This document shows positions 46,745-57,120 of a stretch of DNA of 64,000 bases, piece after piece. Position 1 is the first letter of the stretch; the number at the start of each line of letters is the position of its first letter. The position numbers were made by a program, and so were the translations under genes. The notes under the pieces were generated by a model. It ran no database searches. It worked only from the letters and a program-made list of their open reading frames with translations, and was not told the origin of the DNA. The stretch is from Patescibacteria group bacterium (GTDB taxonomy: Bacteria; Patescibacteriota; JACPGU01). The stretch covers positions 797,254-861,253 of the forward strand of contig JAKLDG010000001.1 in NCBI GenBank assembly GCA_022703645.1. The letters are read 5' to 3'.

Positions 46745-47491
46745 ATGCTAAAAGATATTTATATTATCTTAAGAAACTTTTTGTTTGATCTCTTATTCCC
46801 CTGTTGTTGTCTTGGTTGCGGTGCAGAGGGGTCTTGGATTTGTCAGCAGTGTCTCAAAACTATTGATATTATAAAACAGCCCTTTTGTTCGGAGTGCAGA
46901 AGATCTACTTCATACGGAGAATTTTGTGACAGGTGCAAAAAAGATTTTGCGCTTGATGGGATTTTTATTTGCGCGAATTTTAACGAAGGAGTCCTCAAAG
47001 AAGCGATTCACCAATATAAATATAGCTTTGTTTTTGATATAGGGGAGATATTAGGGAAAATTATAAATGGAAAATTAAATTATGAATTAGGAATTATGAA
47101 TCATGAATTAAAATTTGACATGGTTGTACCGGTGCCATTGCATAAAAAAAGAAAAGCATGGAGAGGGTTTAATCAATCTGAGGTTTTAGGCAAAGTTATT
47201 GCGAAAAAATCAAATATTAAAATTGAGAAGAAAATCCTAGTACGTAATAAATATACAACTCCGCAAATGGAATTAGATAGAGATAGAAGATTGGAGAATT
47301 TAAAAGATGTATTTGAGATTAATAATGTAGGGATTGATAGCTATCAATCCCTACGGACAATACAGAATAAAAATATTTTATTGGTTGATGATATCACGAC
47401 AACCGGAGCAACGCTGGAAGAATGCGCCAAGGTTTTAAAAATAAATGGAGCAAAAAGTGTTTGGGCAATAGTTTTGGCAAAAGGTAAGTAA
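46745..47491 (+). CDS. comFC: ComF-family protein (ComFC-type phosphoribosyltransferase, competence/DNA uptake)
   Basis: N-terminal Cys-rich zinc-finger (CxxC...CxxC) plus C-terminal PRTase motif ILLVDDITTTGATL. Confidence 0.7.
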   Translation: MLKDIYIILRNFLFDLLFPCCCLGCGAEGSWICQQCLKTIDIIKQPFCSECRRSTSYGEFCDRCKKDFALDGIFICANFNEGVLKEAIHQYKYSFVFDIGEILGKIINGKLNYELGIMNHELKFDMVVPVPLHKKRKAWRGFNQSEVLGKVIAKKSNIKIEKKILVRNKYTTPQMELDRDRRLENLKDVFEINNVGIDSYQSLRTIQNKNILLVDDITTTGATLEECAKVLKINGAKSVWAIVLAKGK

Positions 47492-47523
47492 ACGAAAAAG
47501 CGCCGTAAGGCGCTTTTTCGTTT
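47490..47523. terminator. Bidirectional terminator (aaacgaaaaagcgcc-gtaa-ggcgctttttcgttt)
   Basis: A perfect palindrome with flanking A/T runs, between convergent comFC and the S8 protease gene. Confidence 0.75.
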
Positions 47524-49783
47524 ACTTAACTATGATATTCCAATAAAGCCCATTATCTTCCATCCAGTTAAATCCATCAGCAACCGGACGGAAATATTCA
47601 TTATAAACCCCGGCTGCGTTTGGAGCCTTTACCGAAAAATTAAACCTCACATTTTGTCCGGGAACAATAGAGTTACTACTCATAATGATTCTATTCGGGG
47701 ATAGCCATCCTGATCCAGAAATGGGGTTGTAGAAACTGCTTGTACGATCTAATGGGTTGGCGGTACCTAATTTAACAACTGATGAATCCCAAGTTATTCC
47801 GCCGGTGTTTTGATATTCAACCCAGAAGACAATTTGATCTCCTCTATTCATTATTATATAAGGGCTTTGACCAATATAAGATGCATGATAAGACTGTTTT
47901 TCAATTGTCACTTTCCAATAAAGACCAATGTCATTCATCCAGCTAATTCCTTCAGCAACAAGATTAAAATATTCATTGTATTGACCGCTAATTCCAGTCG
48001 GGGCGCTAAAAGTAAAATTAAAATGTGCTATTTCTCCATGGGCCACGACATCTTCCTGCATCGCAATGCGGTTGCTTGAAAGCCAAGAAGTGTCAGTAAA
48101 AATACTATTTCTGTCCATTGGATGAGTTGAGGCAAGGTGTACGCTCTGCTTGGTCCAAGTAGCACTACCCGTGTTTAAATAGGCAATACTCATAGTAGTT
48201 TTTTGTCCCGCAGAAATATTTGGGTATGGGCTTTGGCTTATTAGCTGATATTCATAATCACTTGGGTTTTGTGATATCAAAGTACTTGGAAGAGCAGAAG
48301 CATCACGAGTGTTTAATGTCTTTACCGTTCTGTTTCCTGAAGTGTCATAAACCTCGAAGGTTATTGTATGATCGCCAGCTTCCAAGTTATCAGTTTTTAT
48401 GCCAACATTAAATGATTGTTTTGGGTCGCTATTTAAAACATACCATTTGCTGCCGCCATCAATTTGATATCGAACGGTAGAGATATTACTACTGGTGACG
48501 TTTGGCAAAATATCGTTTCCATCTGTGTCATCGATAGCCGCACCATTTATGCTGTAACTGCCATTTCCTGCTTTATAAAAAGAAGAAATATTGAGAGACG
48601 GAGCGATAGTATCATAGTTTAGAGCGCTATAAGCGTCGAGTTTTCCATATCCAAGAGTCATAGTATAAAAGGCACCAGACATAGATGGAATTTTCTTGGC
48701 ACTTGATAAAATTCTTTTTTTAACTTGTTCTGTCGTTAAAGATGGATCTTTGGATAATAGAAGTGCCGCAGTAGCTGTTACCTGTGGGGTTGCAAAAGAA
48801 GTTCCAGTTAGATATTGATAGTGGTTAATTTGGTTTGAAACAATCCAGCTGGTTGTATAAATATTGTCTCCTAAAGCAACAAGTCCAATACCATCACCAT
48901 AGTTTGCGTAGGATGCTTTATAACCATTCGCATCAAGCGCACCGACGCCAATAGCATCAGGATTACGAGCCGGATTATCTACCAAGACTCTGTGGCTATT
49001 TCCTGTAGCAGCCACCACTAAGCAACCTTTGTTTTTTGCATAGGCTACGGCATTATCCAGAGTTGTACTTTCTTCCATTAAGCCCAAACTAACATTGGCA
49101 ACCCTGGCGCCATTATCGGCTGCATAAGTAAGCCCGCGAGCAAGATCTACCACATCACCTTCACCAGAGGCGGGAACGGCTTTTACTGCCATAATTTTTA
49201 CATTGGCAATTCCAGCAATACCCAATCCATTATTTTTTTGCGCTGCGACCACTCCTGCAACAGCAGTTCCATGCAGATTATCATCCATCGGATCATTGTC
49301 GTTATTTACAAAATCATACCCATGAAAACCTTGCGAATTGGCCCACATCATATTTCGCAGGTCTTCATGGTTGTAGTTCACACCAGTGTCTACAACGGCA
49401 ACAATGATTGATTGTGAACCAGTCGAAGTGTTCCATGCGTTTATTATATTTGAACTTTGCAGATATGTTTGCAGTGAATATCCAGGATCATTAGGGGCTT
49501 CTGAAATCTTCACTTTCTGGTTTTTTTCGATATAAACCGTCGCGATATTTTTTGATAGGATGTTTACTTGGTCGGCCGTCGCATTAATTTCATAAATACC
49601 AAGTTCATTAATTTTTTCAAAACTAGCCACACCAGTTTCGTTAAAAACATCTTCGGTCAAAGCAAAATCACGACTTTTTAATAAGTAGGATTGTTTTTCT
49701 TGCGCAGCAAAGACCTTATTCGTTGGTATAAATAAAAGAGAAAATAGTGTCAGAAACACTAATGCTAAACTGATTTTTTTCAT
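47522..49783 (-). CDS. Secreted subtilisin-like serine protease (S8) with a C-terminal array of the same repeat domain found in the 42344..46264 amidase
   Basis: Signal peptide. Catalytic triad contexts VVDTGV (Asp), HGTAVAG (His), GTSFATP (Ser). The C-terminal ~230 aa are two to three repeats, ...LGTANPLDRTSSF...NRI...VPGQNVRFNFSVKAPNAAGVYNEYFRPVADGFNWMEDNGLYW. Confidence 0.8.
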   Translation of the reverse strand: MKKISLALVFLTLFSLLFIPTNKVFAAQEKQSYLLKSRDFALTEDVFNETGVASFEKINELGIYEINATADQVNILSKNIATVYIEKNQKVKISEAPNDPGYSLQTYLQSSNIINAWNTSTGSQSIIVAVVDTGVNYNHEDLRNMMWANSQGFHGYDFVNNDNDPMDDNLHGTAVAGVVAAQKNNGLGIAGIANVKIMAVKAVPASGEGDVVDLARGLTYAADNGARVANVSLGLMEESTTLDNAVAYAKNKGCLVVAATGNSHRVLVDNPARNPDAIGVGALDANGYKASYANYGDGIGLVALGDNIYTTSWIVSNQINHYQYLTGTSFATPQVTATAALLLSKDPSLTTEQVKKRILSSAKKIPSMSGAFYTMTLGYGKLDAYSALNYDTIAPSLNISSFYKAGNGSYSINGAAIDDTDGNDILPNVTSSNISTVRYQIDGGSKWYVLNSDPKQSFNVGIKTDNLEAGDHTITFEVYDTSGNRTVKTLNTRDASALPSTLISQNPSDYEYQLISQSPYPNISAGQKTTMSIAYLNTGSATWTKQSVHLASTHPMDRNSIFTDTSWLSSNRIAMQEDVVAHGEIAHFNFTFSAPTGISGQYNEYFNLVAEGISWMNDIGLYWKVTIEKQSYHASYIGQSPYIIMNRGDQIVFWVEYQNTGGITWDSSVVKLGTANPLDRTSSFYNPISGSGWLSPNRIIMSSNSIVPGQNVRFNFSVKAPNAAGVYNEYFRPVADGFNWMEDNGLYWNIIVK

Positions 49784-51188: not shown

Positions 51189-51270
51189 ATTTTTGATGTT
51201 TATTATTCTTTTTATTATACATTATTAGTTTAATAAAAAAACAACGAAATTAGTCGTCGTTTATTTAATT

Positions 51271-51466
51271 AATGGGCTTTAATTGAAAATGCGCGAACCT
51301 TTTTCAAATCTAAAAACTGAATTTCTGAATTGCATTTTGGGCGGAGCAATTCTGGGTGGGGGGCAGAATGCTCCGCCCAAAAACCCCGAATCCGAATTTT
51401 CCGCTCAATTTTCCGCCGCCGCTTCTTGCCGCAATTTAGGAAATTGCGGCTATTTTGAAATTTTGA
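51271..51466 (+). repeat. Inverted repeat A (left copy, ~196 bp) with GC-rich long hairpin plus terminator-like hairpin
   Basis: The reverse complement recurs at 54374..54569: ~150 nt identical apart from 1 mismatch. A 15-bp stem gggcggagcaattctg/cagaatgctccgccc has one bulge. The second hairpin ccgcaatttaggaaattgcgg is followed by a T-rich tail. Confidence 0.85.
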
Positions 51467-51473
51467 TTTTTAC

Positions 51474-52001
51474 CTATGTATTTTTTAAGACTTTCCCAAA
51501 AATATATGTATGTGTTACGGGTGGCTTTAAAAGTGTCCCCACAAATGGTTTTTTATTTAATTCTTTTATATTTAAAATTTTATAGTTATTAGCTTTATAA
51601 AATTTAATTGCCCAATCAGCCTTTTTCTGAGCTTCTAGCGCGATTGCATCTATTCCTAATCGTTTTGCTCTTTTTTCTATTTCAGAAAGTAACCCGCTTC
51701 CAACTCCTATTTTTTGATATTTTGGCAACACTTGAATCATACTTATCCAAAGAATACCATTCTCTTTAAGATAATATCTCATGGTGCCAACTATTTTATT
51801 ATTAATCGTAGCTATTAGAAATTTTCTCGTTTTTGCTGATTCTGCAAGATCTTTTTCTGATGCCTTTCCAACACAAAGCATCGTACATTCACTGGGTGTA
51901 AAAACGGACATGTATTGTTTGGCTTCTGAATTTTCTACTCTCGCAAATTCTTTATATTCAGATCCTTTTGGTTTTCTAAATTTTATTTTAATCATTTTCA
52001 T
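51474..52001 (-). CDS. GNAT-family N-acetyltransferase
   Basis: Start at MKMIKIKF (rc of 51999-52001). Acetyl-CoA motif ...LPKYQKIGVGSGLLSEIEKRAKRLGIDAIALEA. The upstream palindrome atttagccggctaaa (52091-52105) shares the half-site TTTAGCC with the PD40-gene operators. Confidence 0.7.
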   Translation of the reverse strand: MKMIKIKFRKPKGSEYKEFARVENSEAKQYMSVFTPSECTMLCVGKASEKDLAESAKTRKFLIATINNKIVGTMRYYLKENGILWISMIQVLPKYQKIGVGSGLLSEIEKRAKRLGIDAIALEAQKKADWAIKFYKANNYKILNIKELNKKPFVGTLLKPPVTHTYIFGKVLKNT

Positions 52002-52146
52002 TTTTATCCATTTTAAATATATCAGAACGACAGGAAAAAGTAAATAATTTAGGAAAATAAAAGTGATTTTTCTCTGTGGAAAAGTCATTTATTTAGCCGG
52101 CTAAACCCTAATATTGCACTCAAAATTTTGGCTTAATAAACGAATA

Positions 52147-52175
52147 TTGACTTTGCCGGCAAACTGTGCTATTAT
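52147..52175 (+). promoter_or_regulatory. Consensus sigma70 promoter TTGACT-17-TATTAT
   Basis: -35 at 52147-52152 and -10 at 52170-52175 with an exact 17-bp spacer. Confidence 0.6.
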
Positions 52176-52181
52176 GTATTT

Positions 52182-52262
52182 AGCATTCGTGAGGGCTTTG
52201 GCTCTCTCGCGGTCAAATGTTAAACTGCAGACGAGTGCTACCAGATTCTTTCTGGTTTTTTT
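52182..52262 (+). ncRNA. Candidate small RNA (~80 nt) defined by the consensus promoter and an intrinsic terminator; no protein-coding capacity
   Basis: Downstream of the TTGACT/TATTAT promoter. 7-bp closing stem gcattcg...cgagtgc (one G-U pair); terminator accagattctttctggt + TTTTTTT at 52240-52262. The 3' end abuts the stop of the convergent 52261..52755 gene. Confidence 0.4.
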
Positions 52263-52755
52263 ATTCTTCAAAATCAGTAGAGCTTAGTTTTCTTTTCTTG
52301 TTTCCGTTGGCATCAACAAACTCTATCCATGACGGGTACATGCTATAAAAGAATTTAACTCCGCCTTCAATTTCTTTTACAACCACTTTGATTCTCACTT
52401 CTTTTATAATAGCTACAAAAACATAATACCGAACCAACTTTGCTCTTTTCTCCCAGCGAGAATTTACTTTCTGACGAACTAACATATTTCTCTCGTCGTA
52501 TTCTTGTAGGGTGTGTGACTTCGTAATAATTTCAGGAACTAAATGTAATAGTCTCAATCGATTGTATTGTTCCACTTCGGATCTACCACGATTCCAAGAT
52601 TTGAAAAGCAGGTGTTCAAAACCTTCATTATTAAAATGCACAAAATCATCTAAATAAGGGCATTTAATTTTGCCAATGTTTTTGTACATTTCTTCGGCAT
52701 TTTCTCGTACCGTTTTGAACTTTTTCTCATCAAATTTTGGATTTTTGTTTTCCAT
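52261..52755 (-). CDS. Hypothetical protein (~164 aa) in IR-flanked cargo
   Basis: Start assumed at MENKNPKF (rc of 52753-52755); no motif recognised. Confidence 0.4.
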   Translation of the reverse strand: MENKNPKFDEKKFKTVRENAEEMYKNIGKIKCPYLDDFVHFNNEGFEHLLFKSWNRGRSEVEQYNRLRLLHLVPEIITKSHTLQEYDERNMLVRQKVNSRWEKRAKLVRYYVFVAIIKEVRIKVVVKEIEGGVKFFYSMYPSWIEFVDANGNKKRKLSSTDFEE

Positions 52756-52848
52756 GATTTTATTATAACATAAAAGTTGGCATGAGAATATCATTGTATT
52801 TTGCTCTGTTTTTGCATAATATGTAACTAATAAATAAACCAAAATTTT

Positions 52849-53895
52849 ATGACAGAAAAATTTGATCCAAGTAAACCAGAGTATAAGAAAGTCGAGGATT
52901 TACCAGAAGATCAACAACCACGATTTGAAAATGTTGAGGGCGGTGGTTTTGTAAATAAAGCCGCTCTTGAATTGTCCAAGGAAGATGCTCAAGAAAAAGC
53001 AACGAAAATTAATGAATGGGTAAACAGTAAAAGGAAAGGTAAATACAGTGAGCTTGATAATCCTGAATCTTCCATGGTATTTGAAAACAAGATAGAGACT
53101 TATGATATTCTTAAGCAAAGATTAGAAAAATTCGATGACATTACTGAAAGAGTTGAAAATTTAATATTGGAGGGGGGTGATTTTGATGTTTTGAGACCCG
53201 GATTTTGGAAGGATATGGTAAGAGCAGAAATGGAATTAGATCCGGCGAGAGGAGGTCTTTCTTGGAAAATAGCCATAGACATAGGCATAAGAGACTCTCA
53301 TATGTTTTTCTCTAGGATTATAGCACTTGATATATTCCATTCTTTGAAAAAAAAGGGATTACTTGACGATAATGATAAGAAACTGTTTTTAAAATCTATG
53401 CCAGTATTTGAGTTAGATAGCATATATACTAGGGGTCGTTCATTGTCACCCACAGCCCTTCTTGGCTACGAAAATGAGCTACTAGATTCTTTAGAAAAAT
53501 TATCACAGCGCGAGAATAGGGATGAAATAAATAAGGAGATTAATGAACGATCGCGCATTCATAGATCGATCTTTGACCTTCATAGATCATGTAATCGCCA
53601 TTTCTTTGAAGACTCTGGGTTCAGTGATATGGATGAATTTATTAAGGATGGAATGGGCGAAAAACAATTCAGGACCTATAATTCATTTAGATCGGGCATA
53701 GACAAGTCGCTTATAGAATATGAGGAACAAAATGAGTTTAAATATAGATCTGGACTCGCGGGCTGGGACGATTCTTATCCAAGAAACGCATTTACTCGTG
53801 GTATGGGCGATATAGATGTTTTTATTGATTTGGCAAAAGATGCTAAAAATAAAACTGAAAATGAAATAGAGCAAGATAAGAAAAAATCAAATTAG
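52849..53895 (+). CDS. Hypothetical protein (348 aa) in IR-flanked cargo
   Basis: Divergent from the 52261..52755 gene; acidic and charged; no motif recognised; hairpin terminator at ~53912-53935. Confidence 0.45.
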   Translation: MTEKFDPSKPEYKKVEDLPEDQQPRFENVEGGGFVNKAALELSKEDAQEKATKINEWVNSKRKGKYSELDNPESSMVFENKIETYDILKQRLEKFDDITERVENLILEGGDFDVLRPGFWKDMVRAEMELDPARGGLSWKIAIDIGIRDSHMFFSRIIALDIFHSLKKKGLLDDNDKKLFLKSMPVFELDSIYTRGRSLSPTALLGYENELLDSLEKLSQRENRDEINKEINERSRIHRSIFDLHRSCNRHFFEDSGFSDMDEFIKDGMGEKQFRTYNSFRSGIDKSLIEYEEQNEFKYRSGLAGWDDSYPRNAFTRGMGDIDVFIDLAKDAKNKTENEIEQDKKKSN

Positions 53896-54048
53896 CCAAT
53901 TGATAATTATAAAAGAGCGTCCAGCAGGGCGCTCTTTTCTTTCCCCTTAAATAGTCCTTCATCTCGCAGCTCCGCTGCGCCCCTCTAAATATAAAAACCT
54001 TGAATTTATATTCCTTAATAAAATTATATTTTTCTTATTATCATTTTT

Positions 54049-54255
54049 CTATTTTAATAGTTGGTCTACTTTTGTTCCGATAGCTTCAGCTAATTTCTCA
54101 ATGGTAGAAAGAGTGAGATTTCTCTTGCCATTTTCAATTCCACTAATAAAAGAACGATGAACTTTTAGTTTTCTCGCAATCGTTCCTTGTGATAATTTCT
54201 TTTTTGTTCTTATTTTTTTTAGATTTTTTCCTAATTGTGATGCTATTTTTGACAT
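54049..54255 (-). CDS. XRE-family helix-turn-helix transcriptional regulator (68 aa)
   Basis: LKKIRTKKKLSQGTIARKLKVHRSFISGIENGKRNLTLSTIEKLAEAIG is a canonical Cro/C1 HTH. Its promoter region has direct repeats ATAATGCAACA x2 (54270-54305, minus-strand reading). Confidence 0.85.
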   Translation of the reverse strand: MSKIASQLGKNLKKIRTKKKLSQGTIARKLKVHRSFISGIENGKRNLTLSTIEKLAEAIGTKVDQLLK

Positions 54256-54373
54256 ATAATTATTATCATTATAAATGTTGTTGCATTATTAGACAATGTT
54301 GCATTATAATGATACATGGATATTTGGGAGTCCTCATCATGCGCGCACGGGAGGGTGGGGCAAGCATGAAAAA

Positions 54374-54569
54374 ATCAAATTTCAAAATAGCGAGCCAATG
54401 GGATTGGCTCGCAAGAAGTGGCGGCGGAAAATTGAGCGGAAAATTCGGATTCGGGGTTTTTGGGCGGAGCATTCTGCCCCCCACCCAGAATTGCTCCGCC
54501 CAAAATGCAATTCAGAAATTCAGTTTTTAGATTTGAAAAAGGTTCGCGCATTTTCAATTAAAGCCCATT
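54374..54569 (-). repeat. Inverted repeat A' (right copy), reverse complement of 51271..51466
   Basis: ~150 nt identical to A. The terminal hairpin has a different sequence but keeps the fold (cgagccaatcccattggctcg versus ccgcaatttaggaaattgcgg). This is compensatory change conserving structure. Confidence 0.85.
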
Positions 54570-54714
54570 GAATTGGAGAGAGCGAAAAATTTGCGGGAAT
54601 TTTGACTCCTCGCTCGCCCCGAAGGCGGGCGGGGCGAGCGAGAATTGAAGCTGTAAAATCATAAGGTTCCAAGAAATTCCAAATGATGTTTTTATTTGAA
54701 ATCAGGCGGTTCGT
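54567..54714 (+). repeat. Inverted repeat B (left copy, 148 bp) abutting A', with GC-rich palindrome ctcgctcgcccc...ggggcgagcgag
   Basis: The reverse complement recurs at 56182..56328 with apparently perfect identity. It contains TGTAAAAT, an extended -10-like element oriented toward the recombinase gene. Confidence 0.85.
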
Positions 54715-54782
54715 GATAGCGGAGCTATCGTGAGCATTAGCTCACTCCAATTTTTTCCACAAGCGAAATAAATATAATCAAA

Positions 54783-56330
54783 ATGACCATGGACAAACAA
54801 AAACAACTACCACCCGATCAATGGTATCTCTACATTAGAAAAAGCACCGATGAAGAAGATCGTCAGGTTCTTTCTCTTGAAGCTCAAATGACCGAATTAA
54901 AAGAATTTGCCCAAAGGGAAAATGTAGAGATAACTGAAACATTTGTAGAAAAAAGAACCGCAAAAATACCCGGTCGCCCTGTTTTCAATGAAATGCTCTC
55001 TAAGCTGGAGAATAGCAATGGAAGAATTGGAATTTTAAGCTGGGCTCCCGACAGATTATCAAGAAATTCTGTCGATGGCGGAAAAATAATCTATCTTTTG
55101 GATATGGGTAGAATTGCCAGCTTAAAATTCCCTACCTTTGCTTTTGAAAATAATCCTTCGGGCAAATTCTTTTTGTCCATTTCTCTGTCTAACGCAAAAT
55201 ACTATGTAGATAATCTCGCGGAAAATGTAAGACGAGGCAATAGAGCAAAACTGCGTCGAGGCGAATGGCCAGGGCAAAAACCTTTTGGCTATATTTATGA
55301 CCACCGACTTAGAAACATTGTTCCCGACAAAAAGAAAGCGGAAAAAATCAAAATTATTTTTGAAGAATTTGCCACAGGCAAATACACTTACGAAACTATC
55401 TCTGATCGCATGATAGAATTTGGGATTAAAAGCAAGAGCGGGAAAAGAAAATCCAATCATGCGACAAACTATCTTTTAACTAATGCTCTCTACTGCGGAA
55501 TAATGAATTGGGATGGCGAGGCATACGAGGGAAAATACCAGCCGCTCATCTCAAAGCAATTGTTTTCAAAGGTTCAGGAAGTTCTACAAAACAAGAGCAG
55601 ACCAAGGCGAGGAGTCAGGGGCAACCACAATTTTCCTTTCTGCGGGCTTTTCAGGTGCTCTTGTGGCTCAATGTATACCGCTCAATGGGCTCGTGGCCAT
55701 GGCGGGCTTTACAGATACTACCGATGCACCAGAAAGCACGGAAAATGCTCCGAGCCGTATATCCAAGAAAAAGATCTGCAAAATAGAATCATAGAAAAGA
55801 TTAAAACAATTGCTTTGCCTGACGATTGGGCCGAGCCGATGTTAAATTACTTAGAACAAGAAAAAAAGAAAGAAGCCCAATCATCAAACGCTTTTGTCCA
55901 AGAGATCAACAAAAAACTTATTTCTACTCAAGATAAAATGGACAAACTTTTAGAACTTTATCTTGATAACATGCTTGACGAGGAAACTTACAAAATAAAA
56001 AAAGAAAGTCTCGTCAATCAAAAAATCGCCCTTAAGGACGAAAAACAAATTCTTGGGCAAAAGCGGATGAGCGGCTGGATCGAACCTACGATAGATTATA
56101 TTAAAACACTTGAGAAAGCCAAAAATATCAGCCCAGCGGTATCTCTCCCCGAGATTTCGCAATTTGTGGAAAAAATTGGAACGAACCGCCTGATTTCAAA
56201 TAAAAACATCATTTGGAATTTCTTGGAACCTTATGATTTTACAGCTTCAATTCTCGCTCGCCCCGCCCGCCTTCGGGGCGAGCGAGGAGTCAAAATTCCC
56301 GCAAATTTTTCGCTCTCTCCAATTCAATAA
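54783..56330 (+). CDS. Large serine recombinase (resolvase/invertase N-terminal catalytic domain, recombinase domain, zinc ribbon, coiled coil)
   Basis: N-terminus YLYIRKSTDEEDRQVLSLEAQ...RLSRNSVDGGKIIYLL (catalytic Ser region), Cys-rich CGLFRCSCG...YRCTRK, then coiled coil. The last 49 codons lie inside inverted repeat B'. Confidence 0.8.
   Translation: MTMDKQKQLPPDQWYLYIRKSTDEEDRQVLSLEAQMTELKEFAQRENVEITETFVEKRTAKIPGRPVFNEMLSKLENSNGRIGILSWAPDRLSRNSVDGGKIIYLLDMGRIASLKFPTFAFENNPSGKFFLSISLSNAKYYVDNLAENVRRGNRAKLRRGEWPGQKPFGYIYDHRLRNIVPDKKKAEKIKIIFEEFATGKYTYETISDRMIEFGIKSKSGKRKSNHATNYLLTNALYCGIMNWDGEAYEGKYQPLISKQLFSKVQEVLQNKSRPRRGVRGNHNFPFCGLFRCSCGSMYTAQWARGHGGLYRYYRCTRKHGKCSEPYIQEKDLQNRIIEKIKTIALPDDWAEPMLNYLEQEKKKEAQSSNAFVQEINKKLISTQDKMDKLLELYLDNMLDEETYKIKKESLVNQKIALKDEKQILGQKRMSGWIEPTIDYIKTLEKAKNISPAVSLPEISQFVEKIGTNRLISNKNIIWNFLEPYDFTASILARPARLRGERGVKIPANFSLSPIQ
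56182..56328 (-). repeat. Inverted repeat B' (right copy), reverse complement of 54567..54714; overlaps the 3' end of the large serine recombinase ORF
   Basis: A 147-bp apparently perfect match to rc(B); it encodes the recombinase C-terminal NRLISNKNIIWNFLEPYDFTASILARPARLRGERGVKIPANFSLSPIQ. Confidence 0.85.
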
Positions 56331-56550
56331 ATCCGATTGGATTGCTTACATTTACATTCCTGTGTTTGGCAGGATTGAGAAAATCAGGGTTGGTCGTATA
56401 TGGCGAACCAAAGTAGTCAACACAACACAGGAAAGATTAGATAACTATTATAAAAACTGCGAATATGTGATAACCCAATAACTACTGGGTTATTTTTAGT
56501 ATATCTGATTGCATTTTACCATACAATTAATTTTTTAGAAAGGAGTAAAA

Positions 56551-57120
56551 ATGAAAAAAGTAGCAATTTATGTTCGTTGCAGTACCGACAAGGGACAGGA
56601 TTTAGACACTCAAATACTGCCACTGAAAGAGTATGTCGCCAATCGTGGTTGGGAAGTCTACAAAATATATCAAGACTATGCTGAAAGCGGTTCAAAACAG
56701 GACAGAAAAGCCTTAAAAGAGCTAATGGATGATGCAAGACGACGCAAATTCCATGTTTGTGCCGTGGCACGCTGGGATAGATTTTCAAGGTCAACTCGGC
56801 AATTACTAGAATCATTGGAAACATTTAGAGCGGTTGGCGTAGATTTTGTCAGTCTGCATAATGCAACCGATACAACTACTCCCGAAGGAAAAATGTTTTT
56901 TACAATAATAGCTGGGTTTGCCGAATATGAAAGAGAACTGATAAGGAGTAGGGTTCTTGATGGTTTGAATAAGGCCAGAGCAAAAGGTAAAACTCTCGGC
57001 CGTCCAAAAGTTCCTATAGATATTCAAAAATTATTTCAACTAAAATCAGAAGGATTATCAATCCGAAAAATAGCAGAGGAATTGAAGGTTCCGAAATCAA
57101 CGGTGCAGAATTATATATGA
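56551..57120 (+). CDS. Small serine recombinase (Hin/Gin-like DNA invertase or resolvase) with C-terminal HTH
   Basis: 189 aa. VAIYVRCSTDKGQDLDTQ (catalytic Ser), ...VARWDRFSRS..., C-terminal LSIRKIAEELKVPKSTVQNYI HTH. Confidence 0.85.
   Translation: MKKVAIYVRCSTDKGQDLDTQILPLKEYVANRGWEVYKIYQDYAESGSKQDRKALKELMDDARRRKFHVCAVARWDRFSRSTRQLLESLETFRAVGVDFVSLHNATDTTTPEGKMFFTIIAGFAEYERELIRSRVLDGLNKARAKGKTLGRPKVPIDIQKLFQLKSEGLSIRKIAEELKVPKSTVQNYI

What the first reader, a model, noticed from the sequence alone, without database searches (positions are those of the whole stretch)
51271..54569. IR-A is a structured element: one 15-bp GC-rich hairpin plus a second hairpin that differs between copies by compensatory substitutions
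Both copies carry gggcggagcaattctg-ggtggggg-cagaatgctccgccc, a 15-bp stem with one bulge in a ~33% GC genome. The adjacent hairpin is ccgcaatttaggaaattgcgg in copy A and cgagccaatcccattggctcg in copy A'. The sequence differs completely but the stem-loop is preserved, and both are followed by the same T-rich tract ctattttgaaatttt(g). Structure conserved while sequence changes implies selection on the fold (RNA terminator, small RNA, or recombinase recognition hairpin), not on coding. The ORF-track peptides differ non-conservatively exactly there.
Basis: seen in the sequence. Interest (0 to 1): 0.7.

Follow-up and report, generated by a model that had tools for sequence, protein, structure and literature searches.

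The report
Duplicated integrase attachment site with hairpins
The repeat is one arm of the DNA attachment site of a small mobile island that a serine integrase inserts next to tRNA genes in tiny "candidate phyla radiation" bacteria; the island keeps a second, inverted copy of that site inside itself, and the hairpins are conserved parts of the site's flank, not drift between copies.

Summary
IR-A (51271-51429 / 54411-54569, one mismatch) carries a 15-bp GC hairpin. Next to it are two unrelated 10-bp hairpins, each followed by the same T-tract.

The "compensatory substitution" reading is wrong for hairpin 2. A relative whose recombinase is 75% identical (L002) has the same two hairpins at the same two positions. 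They are two fixed, terminator-like modules.

Hairpin 1 does covary between elements. It resembles a hairpin with a C-rich loop found inside IR-A of many related elements, but the window copy's membership is inconclusive (E 0.11).

IR-A is half of a larger design. Its inner arm abuts a second repeat, IR-B (54567-54714 / 56181-56328), which brackets a large serine recombinase gene. A'+B together form an intact, inverted copy of the junction that joining the element's two ends (51271, 56328) would create.

In about 80 related loci the same [A-cargo-A'][B-recombinase-B'] layout recurs. In about 50 of them B' abuts a tRNA 3' end. The A arm carries a T-loop-like CGAACC 5 nt further from the crossover than the real T-loop, as in the published attP/attB half-site shift.

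This is a 5.06-kb integrative island. The role of the internal attP copy is unknown and I found no description of it.

The parts
51239..51262 (-). Terminator-like hairpin plus T-run in the left chromosomal flank. It reads away from the element. I infer it is the displaced terminator of the gene, normally a tRNA, that was the integration target.
   Evidence: AAACGACGACTAATTTCGTTGTTT + TTTTATTAAA; for coordinates. The role is inferred.
51271..51273 (+). Left crossover core (AAT), the attL junction. The same triplet lies at the centre of X (54567-54569, as ATT) and at the right end (56326-56328).
   Evidence: Identity with rc(X) starts here on the left and stops at 56328 on the right.
51271..51429 (+). 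IR-A outer arm, the element-side arm of attL. The first ~35 nt are a P-type recombinase half-site (AATGGGCTTTAATTGAAAATGCGCGAACCTTTTTC).
   Evidence: The first ~33 nt are conserved in Saccharibacteria, Falkowbacteria and Nealsonbacteria MAGs. The CGAACC motif shows the +5 nt geometry.
51339..51378 (+). Hairpin 1, outer copy: 15-bp GC stem with one bulge, G-rich loop on this strand.
   Evidence: It covaries with L001, L002 and L115.
51428..51472 (+). Hairpin 2, outer type (GCCGCAATTT-AGG-AAATTGCGGC), plus T-tract. Intrinsic-terminator-like for rightward transcription.
   Evidence: 10 pairs, tail TATTTTGA. Identical hairpin in the outer copy of L002.
51474..54255 (.). Cargo module: GNAT acetyltransferase (51474-52088 -), LPD3-like 193 aa (52261-52842 -), unknown 348 aa (52849-53895 +), XRE/C-protein-like HTH 68 aa (54049-54255 -).
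   Evidence: Cargo differs in relatives: L002 has Peptidase_S51, NUDIX, AbiEii and HTH.
54326..54363 (-). Conserved GC-rich motif TTGCCCC..CCGTGCGCG..CTCCC between the IR-A inner arm and the HTH gene.
   Evidence: 12 loci, always next to one IR-A arm and reading into the cargo.
54369..54412 (-). Hairpin 2, inner type (GCGAGCCAAT-CCC-ATTGGCTCGC), plus T-tract. Terminator-like for leftward transcription, upstream of the HTH gene.
   Evidence: The stem and T-tract are invariant in the window, L001 and L002.
54411..54569 (-). IR-A inner arm (A'), the left half of the internal attP-like unit X.
54462..54501 (-). Hairpin 1, inner copy. Its loop is C-rich on the + strand.
   Evidence: Covariance-model hit of 19.8 bits, E 0.11.
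54567..54714 (+). IR-B inner arm (B), the right half of X. It contains the GC hairpin CTCGCTCGCCCCG-AAGGCGGG-CGGGGCGAGCGAG at 54609-54642.
54715..54756 (+). Two small hairpins plus T-run (GATAGC-GGA-GCTATC, GTGAGC-ATTA-GCTCAC, TCCAATTTTTT) just upstream of the recombinase start. Terminator-like.
   Evidence: Nearly invariant in the window, L001 and L002.
54783..56330 (+). Large serine recombinase, 515 aa. Its last ~49 codons lie in IR-B', and its stop codon straddles the right crossover.
56181..56328 (-). IR-B outer arm (B'), the element-side arm of attR and the right end of the element.
   Evidence: 148/148 identical to B. In relatives this end abuts a tRNA 3' end.

Best explanation
**What it is.** IR-A is the 'A arm' of the attachment site of a 5,058-bp integrative island (51271-56328) in a Patescibacteria (CPR) genome. 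The island is moved by the large serine recombinase (LSR) it encodes.

Its layout is d-flank | A - cargo - A'.B - LSR - B' | flank. Joining the two ends would create the junction B'|A, which is the attP of an excised circle. The contiguous A'.B unit between the HTH gene and the LSR gene (X, 54411-54714) is an intact inverted copy of that attP.

**What is shown.**
- The layout itself.
- Its recurrence across the LSR family.
- The tRNA 3' end as the usual target.
- The first ~35 nt of A as a P-type half-site that mimics the tRNA T-arm, displaced by 5 bp.
- Hairpin 1 as a covarying stem.
- Hairpin 2 as two fixed terminator-like modules.

**What is inferred.**
- The stretch after the half-site acts as an insulator and 3' end. 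Hairpin 2 plus the T-tract would stop transcription that leaves the att core and heads into the cargo or the HTH operon.
- When B' is joined to A (the circle, or the isomer with the LSR module flipped), the same stretch would serve as 3' UTR and terminator of the LSR mRNA.
- The long, near-identical arms are kept alike by recombination between them, which also flips the cargo and LSR modules over evolutionary time.

The purpose of keeping a second, live attP inside the element is not established.
For: **Anatomy.**
- A' and B are contiguous, while A and B' form the outer ends.
- The LSR has Resolvase, Recombinase and Zn_ribbon_recom domains.

**Family survey.**
- Of about 85 loci with LSRs 40-79% identical, most carry IR-B bracketing the LSR.
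- About 20 also hold both IR-A arms. A' overlaps B by 2-13 nt, and the arms are mostly 91-100% identical within an element.
- Between elements the arms are about 73-92% identical.
- B' abuts or overlaps a tRNA 3' end in about 50 loci, covering at least 17 tRNA types.
- LSR C-termini read into antisense tRNA (..ESNPRP..DLNLRP) or into the A arm (..ENARTFF).

**Half-site geometry.**
- CGAAC(C/T) in the A arm lies 5 nt, rarely 6, further from the crossover than the T-loop (T/C)GAAC(C/T) in the tRNA flank. Typical offsets are 18 versus 13, 19/14, 15/10, 16/11 and 17/12, seen in nearly all of the ~34 loci where both motifs are detected.
- This matches the published shift of the ZD motif between attP and attB (PMC3783163).

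**Both isomers exist.**
- L003 is B-LSR-B'.A-cargo-A'.
- The HTH-side motif lies next to the inner arm in 8 loci and next to the outer arm in 3.

**Hairpin 1.**
- Four variants all fold. The distal stem changes from TTCTG/CAGAA to CCCCG/CGGGG, and an A-U pair changes to G-C.

**Family hairpin with a C-rich loop.**
- 24 distinct stems among 26 hairpins. Cognate stems average 11.2 pairs and non-cognate flank pairings 6.0.
- 14 of 16 pairs change on both sides. 91.6% of cells are paired, against 56.5% or less when the partner is slid. 0 of 500 shuffles reach the observed value.

**Hairpin 2.**
- These are the two best terminator-like sites in 5.7 kb.
- Stem and T-tract are invariant across three elements whose LSRs are only 75-79% identical.

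**Hairpin B.**
- The two L002 copies differ by a compensatory pair.
Against: - The window copy has no tRNA at its B' end, and ARAGORN finds none in the whole 64 kb. The flank there is neither tRNA-like nor P-arm-like.
- I recovered no empty site, no excised circle and no directionality factor. All assemblies of this genome show the same arrangement.
- Characterised LSR att sites are about 40-50 bp, so nothing known requires 150-400-nt arms.
- A strict hairpin-plus-T-run at the inner end of A occurs in only 6 of 21 loci reading from the core inward, against 4 of 21 in the opposite direction. The terminator role is therefore supported for the window clade only.
- The orientation of the C-rich loop relative to the crossover varies between elements. 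That fits a DNA-level or orientation-independent role better than a simple 3' UTR.
- The window's hairpin 1 scores only 19.8 bits (E 0.11) against the family model. An ordinary terminator hairpin in the window scores about the same.
- There are no transcript data.
Confidence: 0.72

Rival explanations
1. IR-A is a duplicated small-RNA gene. A ~190-nt RNA would run from near the crossover through hairpin 1 to the hairpin-2 terminator, made from both copies. Its G- or C-rich loop would regulate the recombinase or HTH mRNA, for example by pairing with a Shine-Dalgarno-like or C-rich target. This could coexist with the att-site role.
For: - The two terminator-like hairpins both point away from the att core.
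- Hairpin 1 covaries.
- Many family loops contain CCUCC-like runs.
- The window loop GGGUGGGG is complementary to CCCCACCC in the motif upstream of the HTH gene.
- G-U pairs in L001 and L115 are tolerated only on the strand read from the core inward.
Against: - No sigma-70-like promoter is predicted in X or at the outer end of A.
- No Rfam family matches.
- Loop orientation relative to the core flips between elements, and in L006-type elements the loop and the HTH-side motif have the same sense and cannot pair.
- Only the first ~33 nt of A are conserved beyond close relatives.
- The whole-element fold is barely better than shuffles.
Confidence: 0.2
2. IR-A and IR-B are the sites of a phase-variation switch: invertible segments flipped by a dedicated invertase, here the neighbouring 189-aa resolvase/invertase at 56551-57120. 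On this view they are not the ends of a mobile element.
For: - Long inverted repeats bracket two gene modules.
- A small serine recombinase with a C-terminal HTH lies 220 nt to the right.
- Both orientations of the cargo and LSR modules occur among relatives.
Against: - Relatives with the same double repeat lack the small recombinase. L001 and L002 are flanked by tRNA and housekeeping genes.
- The repeat ends coincide with tRNA 3' ends and with short shared cores, as attL and attR do.
- LSRs at least 90% identical sit next to several different tRNAs.
- The three assemblies of this genome show one orientation only.
Confidence: 0.1
3. The hairpins are palindromic double-stranded DNA binding sites for a dimeric protein, such as the XRE/C-protein-like HTH or an accessory or directionality factor. 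Apparent covariation would then reflect co-evolution of the two half-sites with the protein and not base pairing.
For: - The HTH resembles restriction-modification control proteins, which bind palindromic boxes.
- Hairpin-2' stems are invariant while the loop varies.
- Variable loop orientation is easier to reconcile with a DNA-level role.
Against: - Stems of 10-19 bp that differ in nearly every element (24 of 26 distinct) while the loop stays conserved are the reverse of what an operator shows.
- Hairpin 2' lies about 95 nt from the predicted HTH promoter.
- Both hairpin-2 types are followed by a T-tract on one strand only.
Confidence: 0.1
4. IR-A and IR-B are terminal inverted repeats of two adjacent transposons: an insertion sequence carrying the recombinase, and a passenger element.
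For: - Each module is bracketed by its own near-perfect repeat.
- The LSR module occurs alone between two tRNA genes in L035 and L112.
- Mosaic neighbours occur in L009, L030 and L039.
Against: - Serine-recombinase transposons (IS607, Tn4451/Tn5397) have no long terminal repeats (my own knowledge).
- A' and B abut or overlap in about 20 independent loci.
- The arm ends behave as LSR half-sites with attP geometry.
- There are no target-site duplications beyond the crossover core.
Confidence: 0.07

Closest known systems
Large serine integrase systems of phages and integrative elements (A118/LI, Bxb1, phiC31): attP x attB recombination
   Same: - Same enzyme architecture.
- A short shared core at attL, attP and attR.
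- The recognition motif lies 5 bp further out in the element's half-site than in the host's half-site (PMC3783163).
- The element carries accessory cargo.
   Different: - The target is the 3' end of many different tRNA genes, not one fixed site.
- attP overlaps the 3' end of the recombinase gene.
- The element keeps a second, inverted, intact attP copy.
- The arms are conserved and homogenised over 100-400 nt instead of about 25 nt.
Yeast 2-micron plasmid (FLP/FRT inside two 599-bp inverted repeats)
   Same: In the circular form, two long identical inverted repeats, each holding a recombination site, would split the molecule into two unique segments. One segment encodes the recombinase, and both isomers occur.
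   Different: - Tyrosine recombinase in 2-micron versus serine recombinase here.
- Autonomous replicon versus integrated island with no replication gene.
- Flipping here is inferred from comparisons between elements and was not observed.
- The comparison rests on my own knowledge of 2-micron.
Tn4451/Tn5397 (TnpX/TndX large serine recombinase transposons)
   Same: An LSR-driven element that excises as a circle whose joint has regulatory meaning for the recombinase gene (my own knowledge).
   Different: Those elements have no long inverted repeats, no internal copy of the joint and no tRNA targeting.
Hin/Gin/Cin/Pin invertible segments
   Same: Serine recombinase chemistry, with gene segments bracketed by inverted repeats.
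   Different: - Those systems use small invertases, 26-bp sites and an enhancer.
- Here the conserved enzyme is an LSR.
- The repeat ends are integration junctions at tRNA genes.
tRNA-targeting genomic islands with tyrosine integrases (including tycheposons)
   Same: Small cargo islands at tRNA 3' ends, with the tRNA end restored by element sequence.
   Different: - Those islands have direct repeats of a tRNA 3' fragment and a tyrosine integrase.
- Here there is only a 2-13-nt core, a serine integrase and two inverted-repeat pairs.
Intrinsic (Rho-independent) terminators
   Same: Both hairpin-2 types are 10-bp GC-containing stems with 3-nt loops followed by TATTTTGA.
   Different: Function is not shown. 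The equivalent feature is not general across the element family.

Membership tests
Large serine recombinase integrative element | Encodes a recombinase with resolvase catalytic domain, recombinase domain and zinc ribbon | tested here: met
   Pfam PF00239 4.6e-20, PF07508 5.7e-13, PF13408 2.2e-09.
Large serine recombinase integrative element | Element ends, when joined, form an attP whose half-site motif lies about 5 bp further from the crossover than in attB | tested here: met
   CGAAC(C/T) offsets of 18 vs 13, 19 vs 14, 15 vs 10, 16 vs 11 and 17 vs 12, in nearly all of the ~34 loci where both motifs are detected. Rule taken from PMC3783163. For the window only the P-type arm could be scored (offset 20), because its flank has no tRNA.
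Large serine recombinase integrative element | Short identical core at attL, attR and attP | tested here: met
   AAT at 51271-51273, 54567-54569 (as ATT) and 56326-56328. Cores are 2-13 nt in relatives.
Large serine recombinase integrative element | Empty target site or excised circle exists in related genomes or populations | tested here: inconclusive
   The look-ups by the window's own LSR and by the flanking beta-CASP protein returned only occupied copies of the same genome. Indirect support: LSRs at least 90% identical sit next to different tRNAs.
Large serine recombinase integrative element | Integration next to the family's usual target (a tRNA 3' end) | tested here: not met
   No tRNA in the window. 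The window's B' flank is atypical. The feature is met in about 50 related loci. This is a feature of the family's habit and does not define LSR elements.
Intrinsic terminator (hairpin 2, both types) | GC-containing stem-loop followed directly by a U-rich tract on the transcribed strand | tested here: met
   10 pairs, 5-6 of them G-C, 3-nt loop, tail TATTTTGA. These are the two top sites of the scan.
Intrinsic terminator (hairpin 2, both types) | Transcripts end at the U-tract | not testable with these tools
   No transcriptome is available.
C-rich-loop hairpin of IR-A (motif family defined here) | Covarying GC stem closing a loop with CCCC(C)-N3-CCCC(C), located inside IR-A | tested here: inconclusive
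   The window hairpin 1 has a covarying stem and a CCCCCCACC loop on one strand. The covariance model built from 10 other elements gives 19.8 bits, E 0.11. An unrelated terminator hairpin in the window scores about the same.
Any described RNA family (Rfam 15) | Match to a curated covariance model | tested here: not met
   Nothing at IR-A or IR-B at E up to 10 in the window. Only tRNA and one group I intron reach gathering score in 14 related loci.
Hin/Gin-type invertible segment | A small serine invertase gene conserved next to the invertible DNA | tested here: not met
   Present in the window (56551-57120) but absent beside the same repeats in L001 and L002.
Insertion sequence or transposon with terminal inverted repeats | The two outer ends of the element are inverted repeats of each other | tested here: not met
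   The outer ends are A and B', which are unrelated in sequence. The repeats pair outer with inner.
RNA-guided recombination (bridge-RNA-like) | Element-encoded structured RNA carries sequence complementary to its particular target | tested here: not met
   Best local match of arms to the cognate tRNA versus non-cognate tRNAs: 7.56 vs 7.53 for the A arm and 7.47 vs 7.32 for the B arm, in 34 loci.

The most novel reading that the evidence does not exclude
The internal inverted attP copy is a functional design and not a relic. Two mechanisms remain open.

1. It gives the integrated island a second, still-active attachment site. The recombinase, without a directionality factor, could then flip the recombinase and cargo modules, or recombine with a second tRNA gene. 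That would move the recombinase module and invert chromosome segments. L035 and L112, where the recombinase module sits between two tail-to-tail tRNA genes, would be products of this.

2. A single-stranded copy of the island, taken up by competence or conjugation, folds A on A' and B on B'. This rebuilds a double-stranded attP with a nick exactly at the crossover. It would be a serine-recombinase analogue of the folded attP of CTX phage.

In both cases the GC hairpins with conserved C-rich loops would be required accessory structures.
Probability: 0.15. Interest if true: 0.85.

Novelty: new variant of a known kind. Interest (0 to 1): 0.58.

Why it matters
- **A recurrent island type.** CPR/Patescibacteria have tiny genomes, and little is known about how they exchange genes. 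This finding exposes a widespread type of small island. It appears in Parcubacteria-group lineages (Yonath-, Portnoy-, Falkow- and Nealsonbacteria), Amesbacteria and Saccharibacteria. It carries toxin-antitoxin-like and other accessory genes into tRNA loci.
- **An unusual integrase target.** The integrase family appears to read the universal tRNA T-arm. That makes it a naturally multi-target serine integrase with recognisable attP/attB geometry, which is of interest for integrase engineering.
- **Unexplained features to test.** The conserved internal inverted attP and the covarying C-loop hairpin are not explained by current models of serine integrases, which need only about 50-bp sites. They are concrete, testable candidates for accessory or regulatory elements.
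- **Practical consequence.** These repeats end contigs. The closed 866-kb genome here ends inside IR-A, so they also matter for assembling CPR genomes.

Tried and rejected
- **Rfam.** A permissive scan of the window region and a gathering-score scan of 14 related loci found no family for either hairpin.
- **RNA-guide idea.** The arms show no target-specific complementarity to the cognate tRNA.
- **Hairpin 2 as drift with compensation.** Rejected, because both hairpin types are conserved at their own positions in L002.
- **Terminator at the inner end of A as a family-wide rule.** Not supported: 6 of 21 loci versus 4 of 21 in the opposite direction.
- **Phage origin.** Only 4 weak relatives exist in 2.9 million viral contigs, all at contig ends.
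- **Defence-gene cargo in the window.** PADLOC matched only the HTH, as a 'control protein'.
- **Empty site.** Look-ups by the window LSR and by the flanking beta-CASP protein returned only the same occupied genome. One look-up was wasted on wrong coordinates.
- **MAFFT alignment of all C-loop hairpins.** It was not in structural register. I used a 10-sequence subgroup for the model and a flank-swap control for the rest.
- **Literature.** Three searches on serine recombinase with CPR, tRNA or inverted repeats found no description of this layout. The searchable library is incomplete.
- **Promoters.** The consensus scan found no more sites than shuffles, and none in X.

Full report
**1. The observation**

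The two IR-A arms are 51271-51429 and 54411-54569. They are 159 nt long and differ at one position, 51421 G versus 54419.

Each arm carries GGGCGGAGCA[A]TTCTG-GGTGGGGGG-CAGAATGCTCCGCCC, at 51339-51378 and on the other strand at 54462-54501. This hairpin has 15 pairs and one bulge, and it dominates the MFE and centroid folds.

Directly after the arm, the outer copy has GCCGCAATTT-AGG-AAATTGCGGC (51428-51450). The inner copy has GCGAGCCAAT-CCC-ATTGGCTCGC (54390-54412, minus strand). After these hairpins both copies resume a shared TATTTTGAAATTT(T)GATTTTT.

Perfect hairpins with stems of 9 bp or more give 45 (stem,loop) hits in the window, from about 22 distinct hairpins. Mononucleotide shuffles give 2-9 hits. 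The element's hairpins are the most GC-rich of them. The whole 205-nt units fold only a little better than shuffles (z -1.2 and -2.6), so the signal is local. The window is 36% GC, IR-A is 47% and the cargo is 33%.

**2. What surrounds it**

IR-A is not alone. Its inner arm ends at 54569. A second perfect repeat, IR-B, starts at 54567 (54567-54714 / 56181-56328, 148 of 148 identical) and has its own 13-bp GC hairpin.

Between the IR-B arms lies a 515-aa large serine recombinase (LSR) with Resolvase, Recombinase and Zn_ribbon_recom domains. Its last ~49 codons are inside B', and its stop codon straddles position 56328.

Between the IR-A arms lie four genes: a GNAT acetyltransferase, an LPD3-like protein, an unknown 348-aa protein, and a 68-aa XRE-type HTH that resembles restriction-modification control proteins.

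A' and B are contiguous, and A and B' are the outer ends. Joining 56328 to 51271 would therefore create B'|A, the exact reverse complement of the internal unit X = A'.B. The triplet AAT/ATT is shared by all three points.

**3. Relatives**

The LSR has more than 2,600 homologues. Nearly all are unnamed metagenome contigs, and the few named ones are Patescibacteria.

L001 (79% identical) and L002 (75%) have the same arrangement: the HTH gene, a ~500-nt intergenic unit, then the LSR. L002 also has the outer A arm, 3.9 kb away, around different cargo (Peptidase_S51, NUDIX, AbiEii). In both loci B' abuts the 3' end of a tRNA gene on the opposite strand, tRNA-Lys in L001 and tRNA-Leu in L002.

A survey of 80 further loci (LSR 40-66% identical) plus extra look-ups shows the layout is the rule:
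- IR-B brackets the LSR in most loci.
- Both IR-A arms are present in about 20 loci, with A' overlapping B by 2-13 nt.
- Arms are mostly 91-100% identical within an element, and about 73-92% between close elements.
- B' touches a tRNA 3' end in about 50 loci, covering at least 17 tRNA types.

LSR C-termini read through the junction into antisense tRNA (..ESNPRP..DLNLRP) or into the A arm (..ENARTFF). Both kinds of tail, and several different tRNA tails, occur inside clusters at least 90% identical.

L003 shows the alternative isomer, B-LSR-B'.A-cargo-A'. A conserved motif on the HTH side lies next to the inner arm in 8 loci and next to the outer arm in 3, so the cargo module has also flipped during evolution. 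Only 4 weak relatives occur in viral contigs.

**4. The arms are recombinase half-sites**

Only the first ~33 nt of A are conserved beyond close relatives. They are also found in Saccharibacteria, Falkowbacteria and Nealsonbacteria MAGs.

In nearly all of the ~34 loci where both motifs can be detected, the A-arm motif CGAAC(C/T) sits 5 nt, rarely 6, further from the point of divergence than the tRNA T-loop (T/C)GAAC(C/T) in the flank. Typical offsets are 18 versus 13, 19 versus 14, 15 versus 10, 16 versus 11 and 17 versus 12.

[quoted passage not shown] So A is a P-type half-site that mimics the tRNA T-arm, B'|A is attP, and X is a second, inverted attP.

The arms show no target-specific complementarity to the cognate tRNA, so an RNA-guide mechanism is not supported.

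**5. Hairpin 2**

In L002 the outer copy carries CCGCAATTTAGGAAATTGCGG, identical to the window's outer copy. The inner copy carries the CGAGCCAA..TTGGCTCG stem of the window's inner copy, and L001's inner copy has that stem too.

The two hairpins are therefore two fixed modules tied to position. They did not arise by compensatory change between copies, and their invariant stems say nothing about pairing.

Both are followed by a T-tract on the strand read from the att core inward, and they are the two best terminator-like sites in 5.7 kb. A third conserved terminator-like unit (54715-54756) follows B, just upstream of the LSR start. So X is flanked on both sides by terminator-like elements that point outward.

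This does not generalise. A strict hairpin-plus-T-run at the inner end of A occurs in 6 of 21 loci, against 4 of 21 in the opposite direction.

**6. Hairpin 1**

Four distinct variants (window, L115 group, L001, L002) all fold, at -25 to -39 kcal/mol. The stem base GGGCGGAGC/GCTCCGCCC is conserved. The distal stem changes from TTCTG/CAGAA to CCCCG/CGGGG, and one A-U pair becomes G-C. In L002 the two copies of hairpin B differ by a compensatory pair.

Across the family, IR-A contains a hairpin with a GC-rich stem that differs in nearly every element. The stem closes a conserved C-rich loop, TTCC..CCCC(C)-N3-CCCC(C)..TTCC.
- 24 of 26 stems are distinct. Cognate flanks give on average 11.2 uninterrupted pairs, and swapped flanks give 6.0.
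- On a 10-sequence alignment, 14 of 16 pairs change on both sides. 91.6% of cells pair, against 56.5% or less with slid partners, and 0 of 500 shuffles reach the observed score.
- A covariance model finds further copies in loci outside the training set.
- Rfam has no such family.

The window's hairpin 1 has the right place, a covarying stem and a CCCCCCACC loop on one strand. It scores only 19.8 bits (E 0.11), about the same as an ordinary terminator hairpin in the window, so its membership is unproven.

The orientation of the C-rich loop relative to the crossover varies among elements.

**7. How it most likely works**

Shown:
- The window holds a 5,058-bp LSR island with attL at 51271 and attR at 56328.
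- The island contains an internal inverted attP.
- The family targets tRNA 3' ends.
- The hairpins are selected structures.

Inferred:
- The stretch of A beyond the half-site insulates the att core and the cargo/HTH operon from transcription.
- In the B'.A configuration the same stretch supplies the 3' UTR and terminator of the LSR.
- The near-identity of the arms reflects ongoing recombination between them, which also produces the observed isomers.

Not explained:
- Why a second attP is kept.
- Why arms of 100-400 nt are conserved.
- What the C-rich loop binds.

Caveats specific to the window:
- No tRNA lies at B' or anywhere else in the 64 kb.
- The right flank begins with a 16-nt stretch that resembles the B-arm tip of relatives.
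- All assemblies of this genome, including a closed 866-kb contig whose ends overlap inside IR-A, show the same arrangement.

**8. Novelty**

LSR integrative elements and intrinsic terminators are known. I did not find the double inverted-repeat layout with an internal attP copy, the T-arm-mimicking half-site, or the C-loop hairpin described in three literature searches or in Rfam. The library searched is incomplete.

I rate this a new variant of a known kind, of moderate to good interest. The finding as written (hairpin compensation between copies) is largely a misreading. It nevertheless points to a real and widespread element.

Noticed in passing
window 54326-54363 (-); also L001 875-914, L006 2618-2661, L016 6218-6260, L115 160-207, L036 1761-1815: A conserved GC-rich motif, TTGCCCC-N-CCGTGCGCG-N-CTCCC, lies between one IR-A arm and the HTH gene in 12 loci whose recombinases are only 42-79% identical to the window's. 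It could be a promoter or an operator of the HTH/cargo operon. In the window its CCCCACCC is complementary to the hairpin-1 loop.
   Followed up: partly
L016 2444-2498, L076 2002-2056, L071 2600-2656, L096 316-372, L094 943-999 and about 25 other loci: A hairpin family inside IR-A has strongly covarying stems and a conserved C-rich loop (CCCCC-AGA-CCCCC flanked by TTCC). It is absent from Rfam 15. The orientation of the loop relative to the crossover differs between elements.
   Followed up: yes
window 54715-54756 (+): Two small hairpins plus a T-run lie just upstream of the recombinase start codon and outside IR-B. They are almost invariant in three elements whose recombinases are 75-79% identical. 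This looks like a leader or attenuator.
   Followed up: partly
window 56329-56345 and the flank up to 56550: The right flank of the element is not a tRNA. It begins AAATCCGATTGGATTGC, which resembles the tip of the B arm in relatives (L002 has AAATCCTATTGAATGC). It may be a remnant of an earlier insertion or of a rearrangement.
   Followed up: partly
window 56551-57120 (+): A 189-aa resolvase/invertase-type serine recombinase, followed by several unknown small genes, lies immediately right of the island. It is not present beside the related islands in L001 and L002.
   Followed up: partly
L035 33-1940; L112 657-2559: The recombinase module alone (B-LSR-B') sits between two tail-to-tail tRNA genes: Ser-gct/Ser-tga in L035 and Glu/Arg in L112. 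This could mean insertion into a symmetric double-tRNA site, or a product of the internal attP recombining with a second tRNA gene.
   Followed up: no
L009 B' flank (after 6652); L030 (after 1952); L039 (after 1768); L114/L115: In these loci B' is followed by a P-type arm of a different sequence class from the element's own A arm. This suggests mosaic or tandem arrays and exchange of modules between elements.
   Followed up: no
L047 1062-1335 (-): A group I intron (Rfam RF00028, 55.9 bits) lies just outside the outer IR-A arm (1381-1542), on the same contig as a tRNA-Gly about 880 nt away (112-185).
   Followed up: no
window 51271-51420, which matches both ends of contig Ga0116241_10000009: The 866-kb contig that carries this locus starts and ends inside IR-A with a ~150-nt overlap. 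It is a closed genome whose assembly was cut at the repeat. Many related contigs also end exactly in IR-A or IR-B.
   Followed up: yes
window 47485-47528 and 53911-53938: The host's ordinary terminators look different from the island's hairpins. They have an A-run, a GC core and a T-run, making them bidirectional. One example is a 20-bp perfect hairpin between two convergent genes.
   Followed up: no
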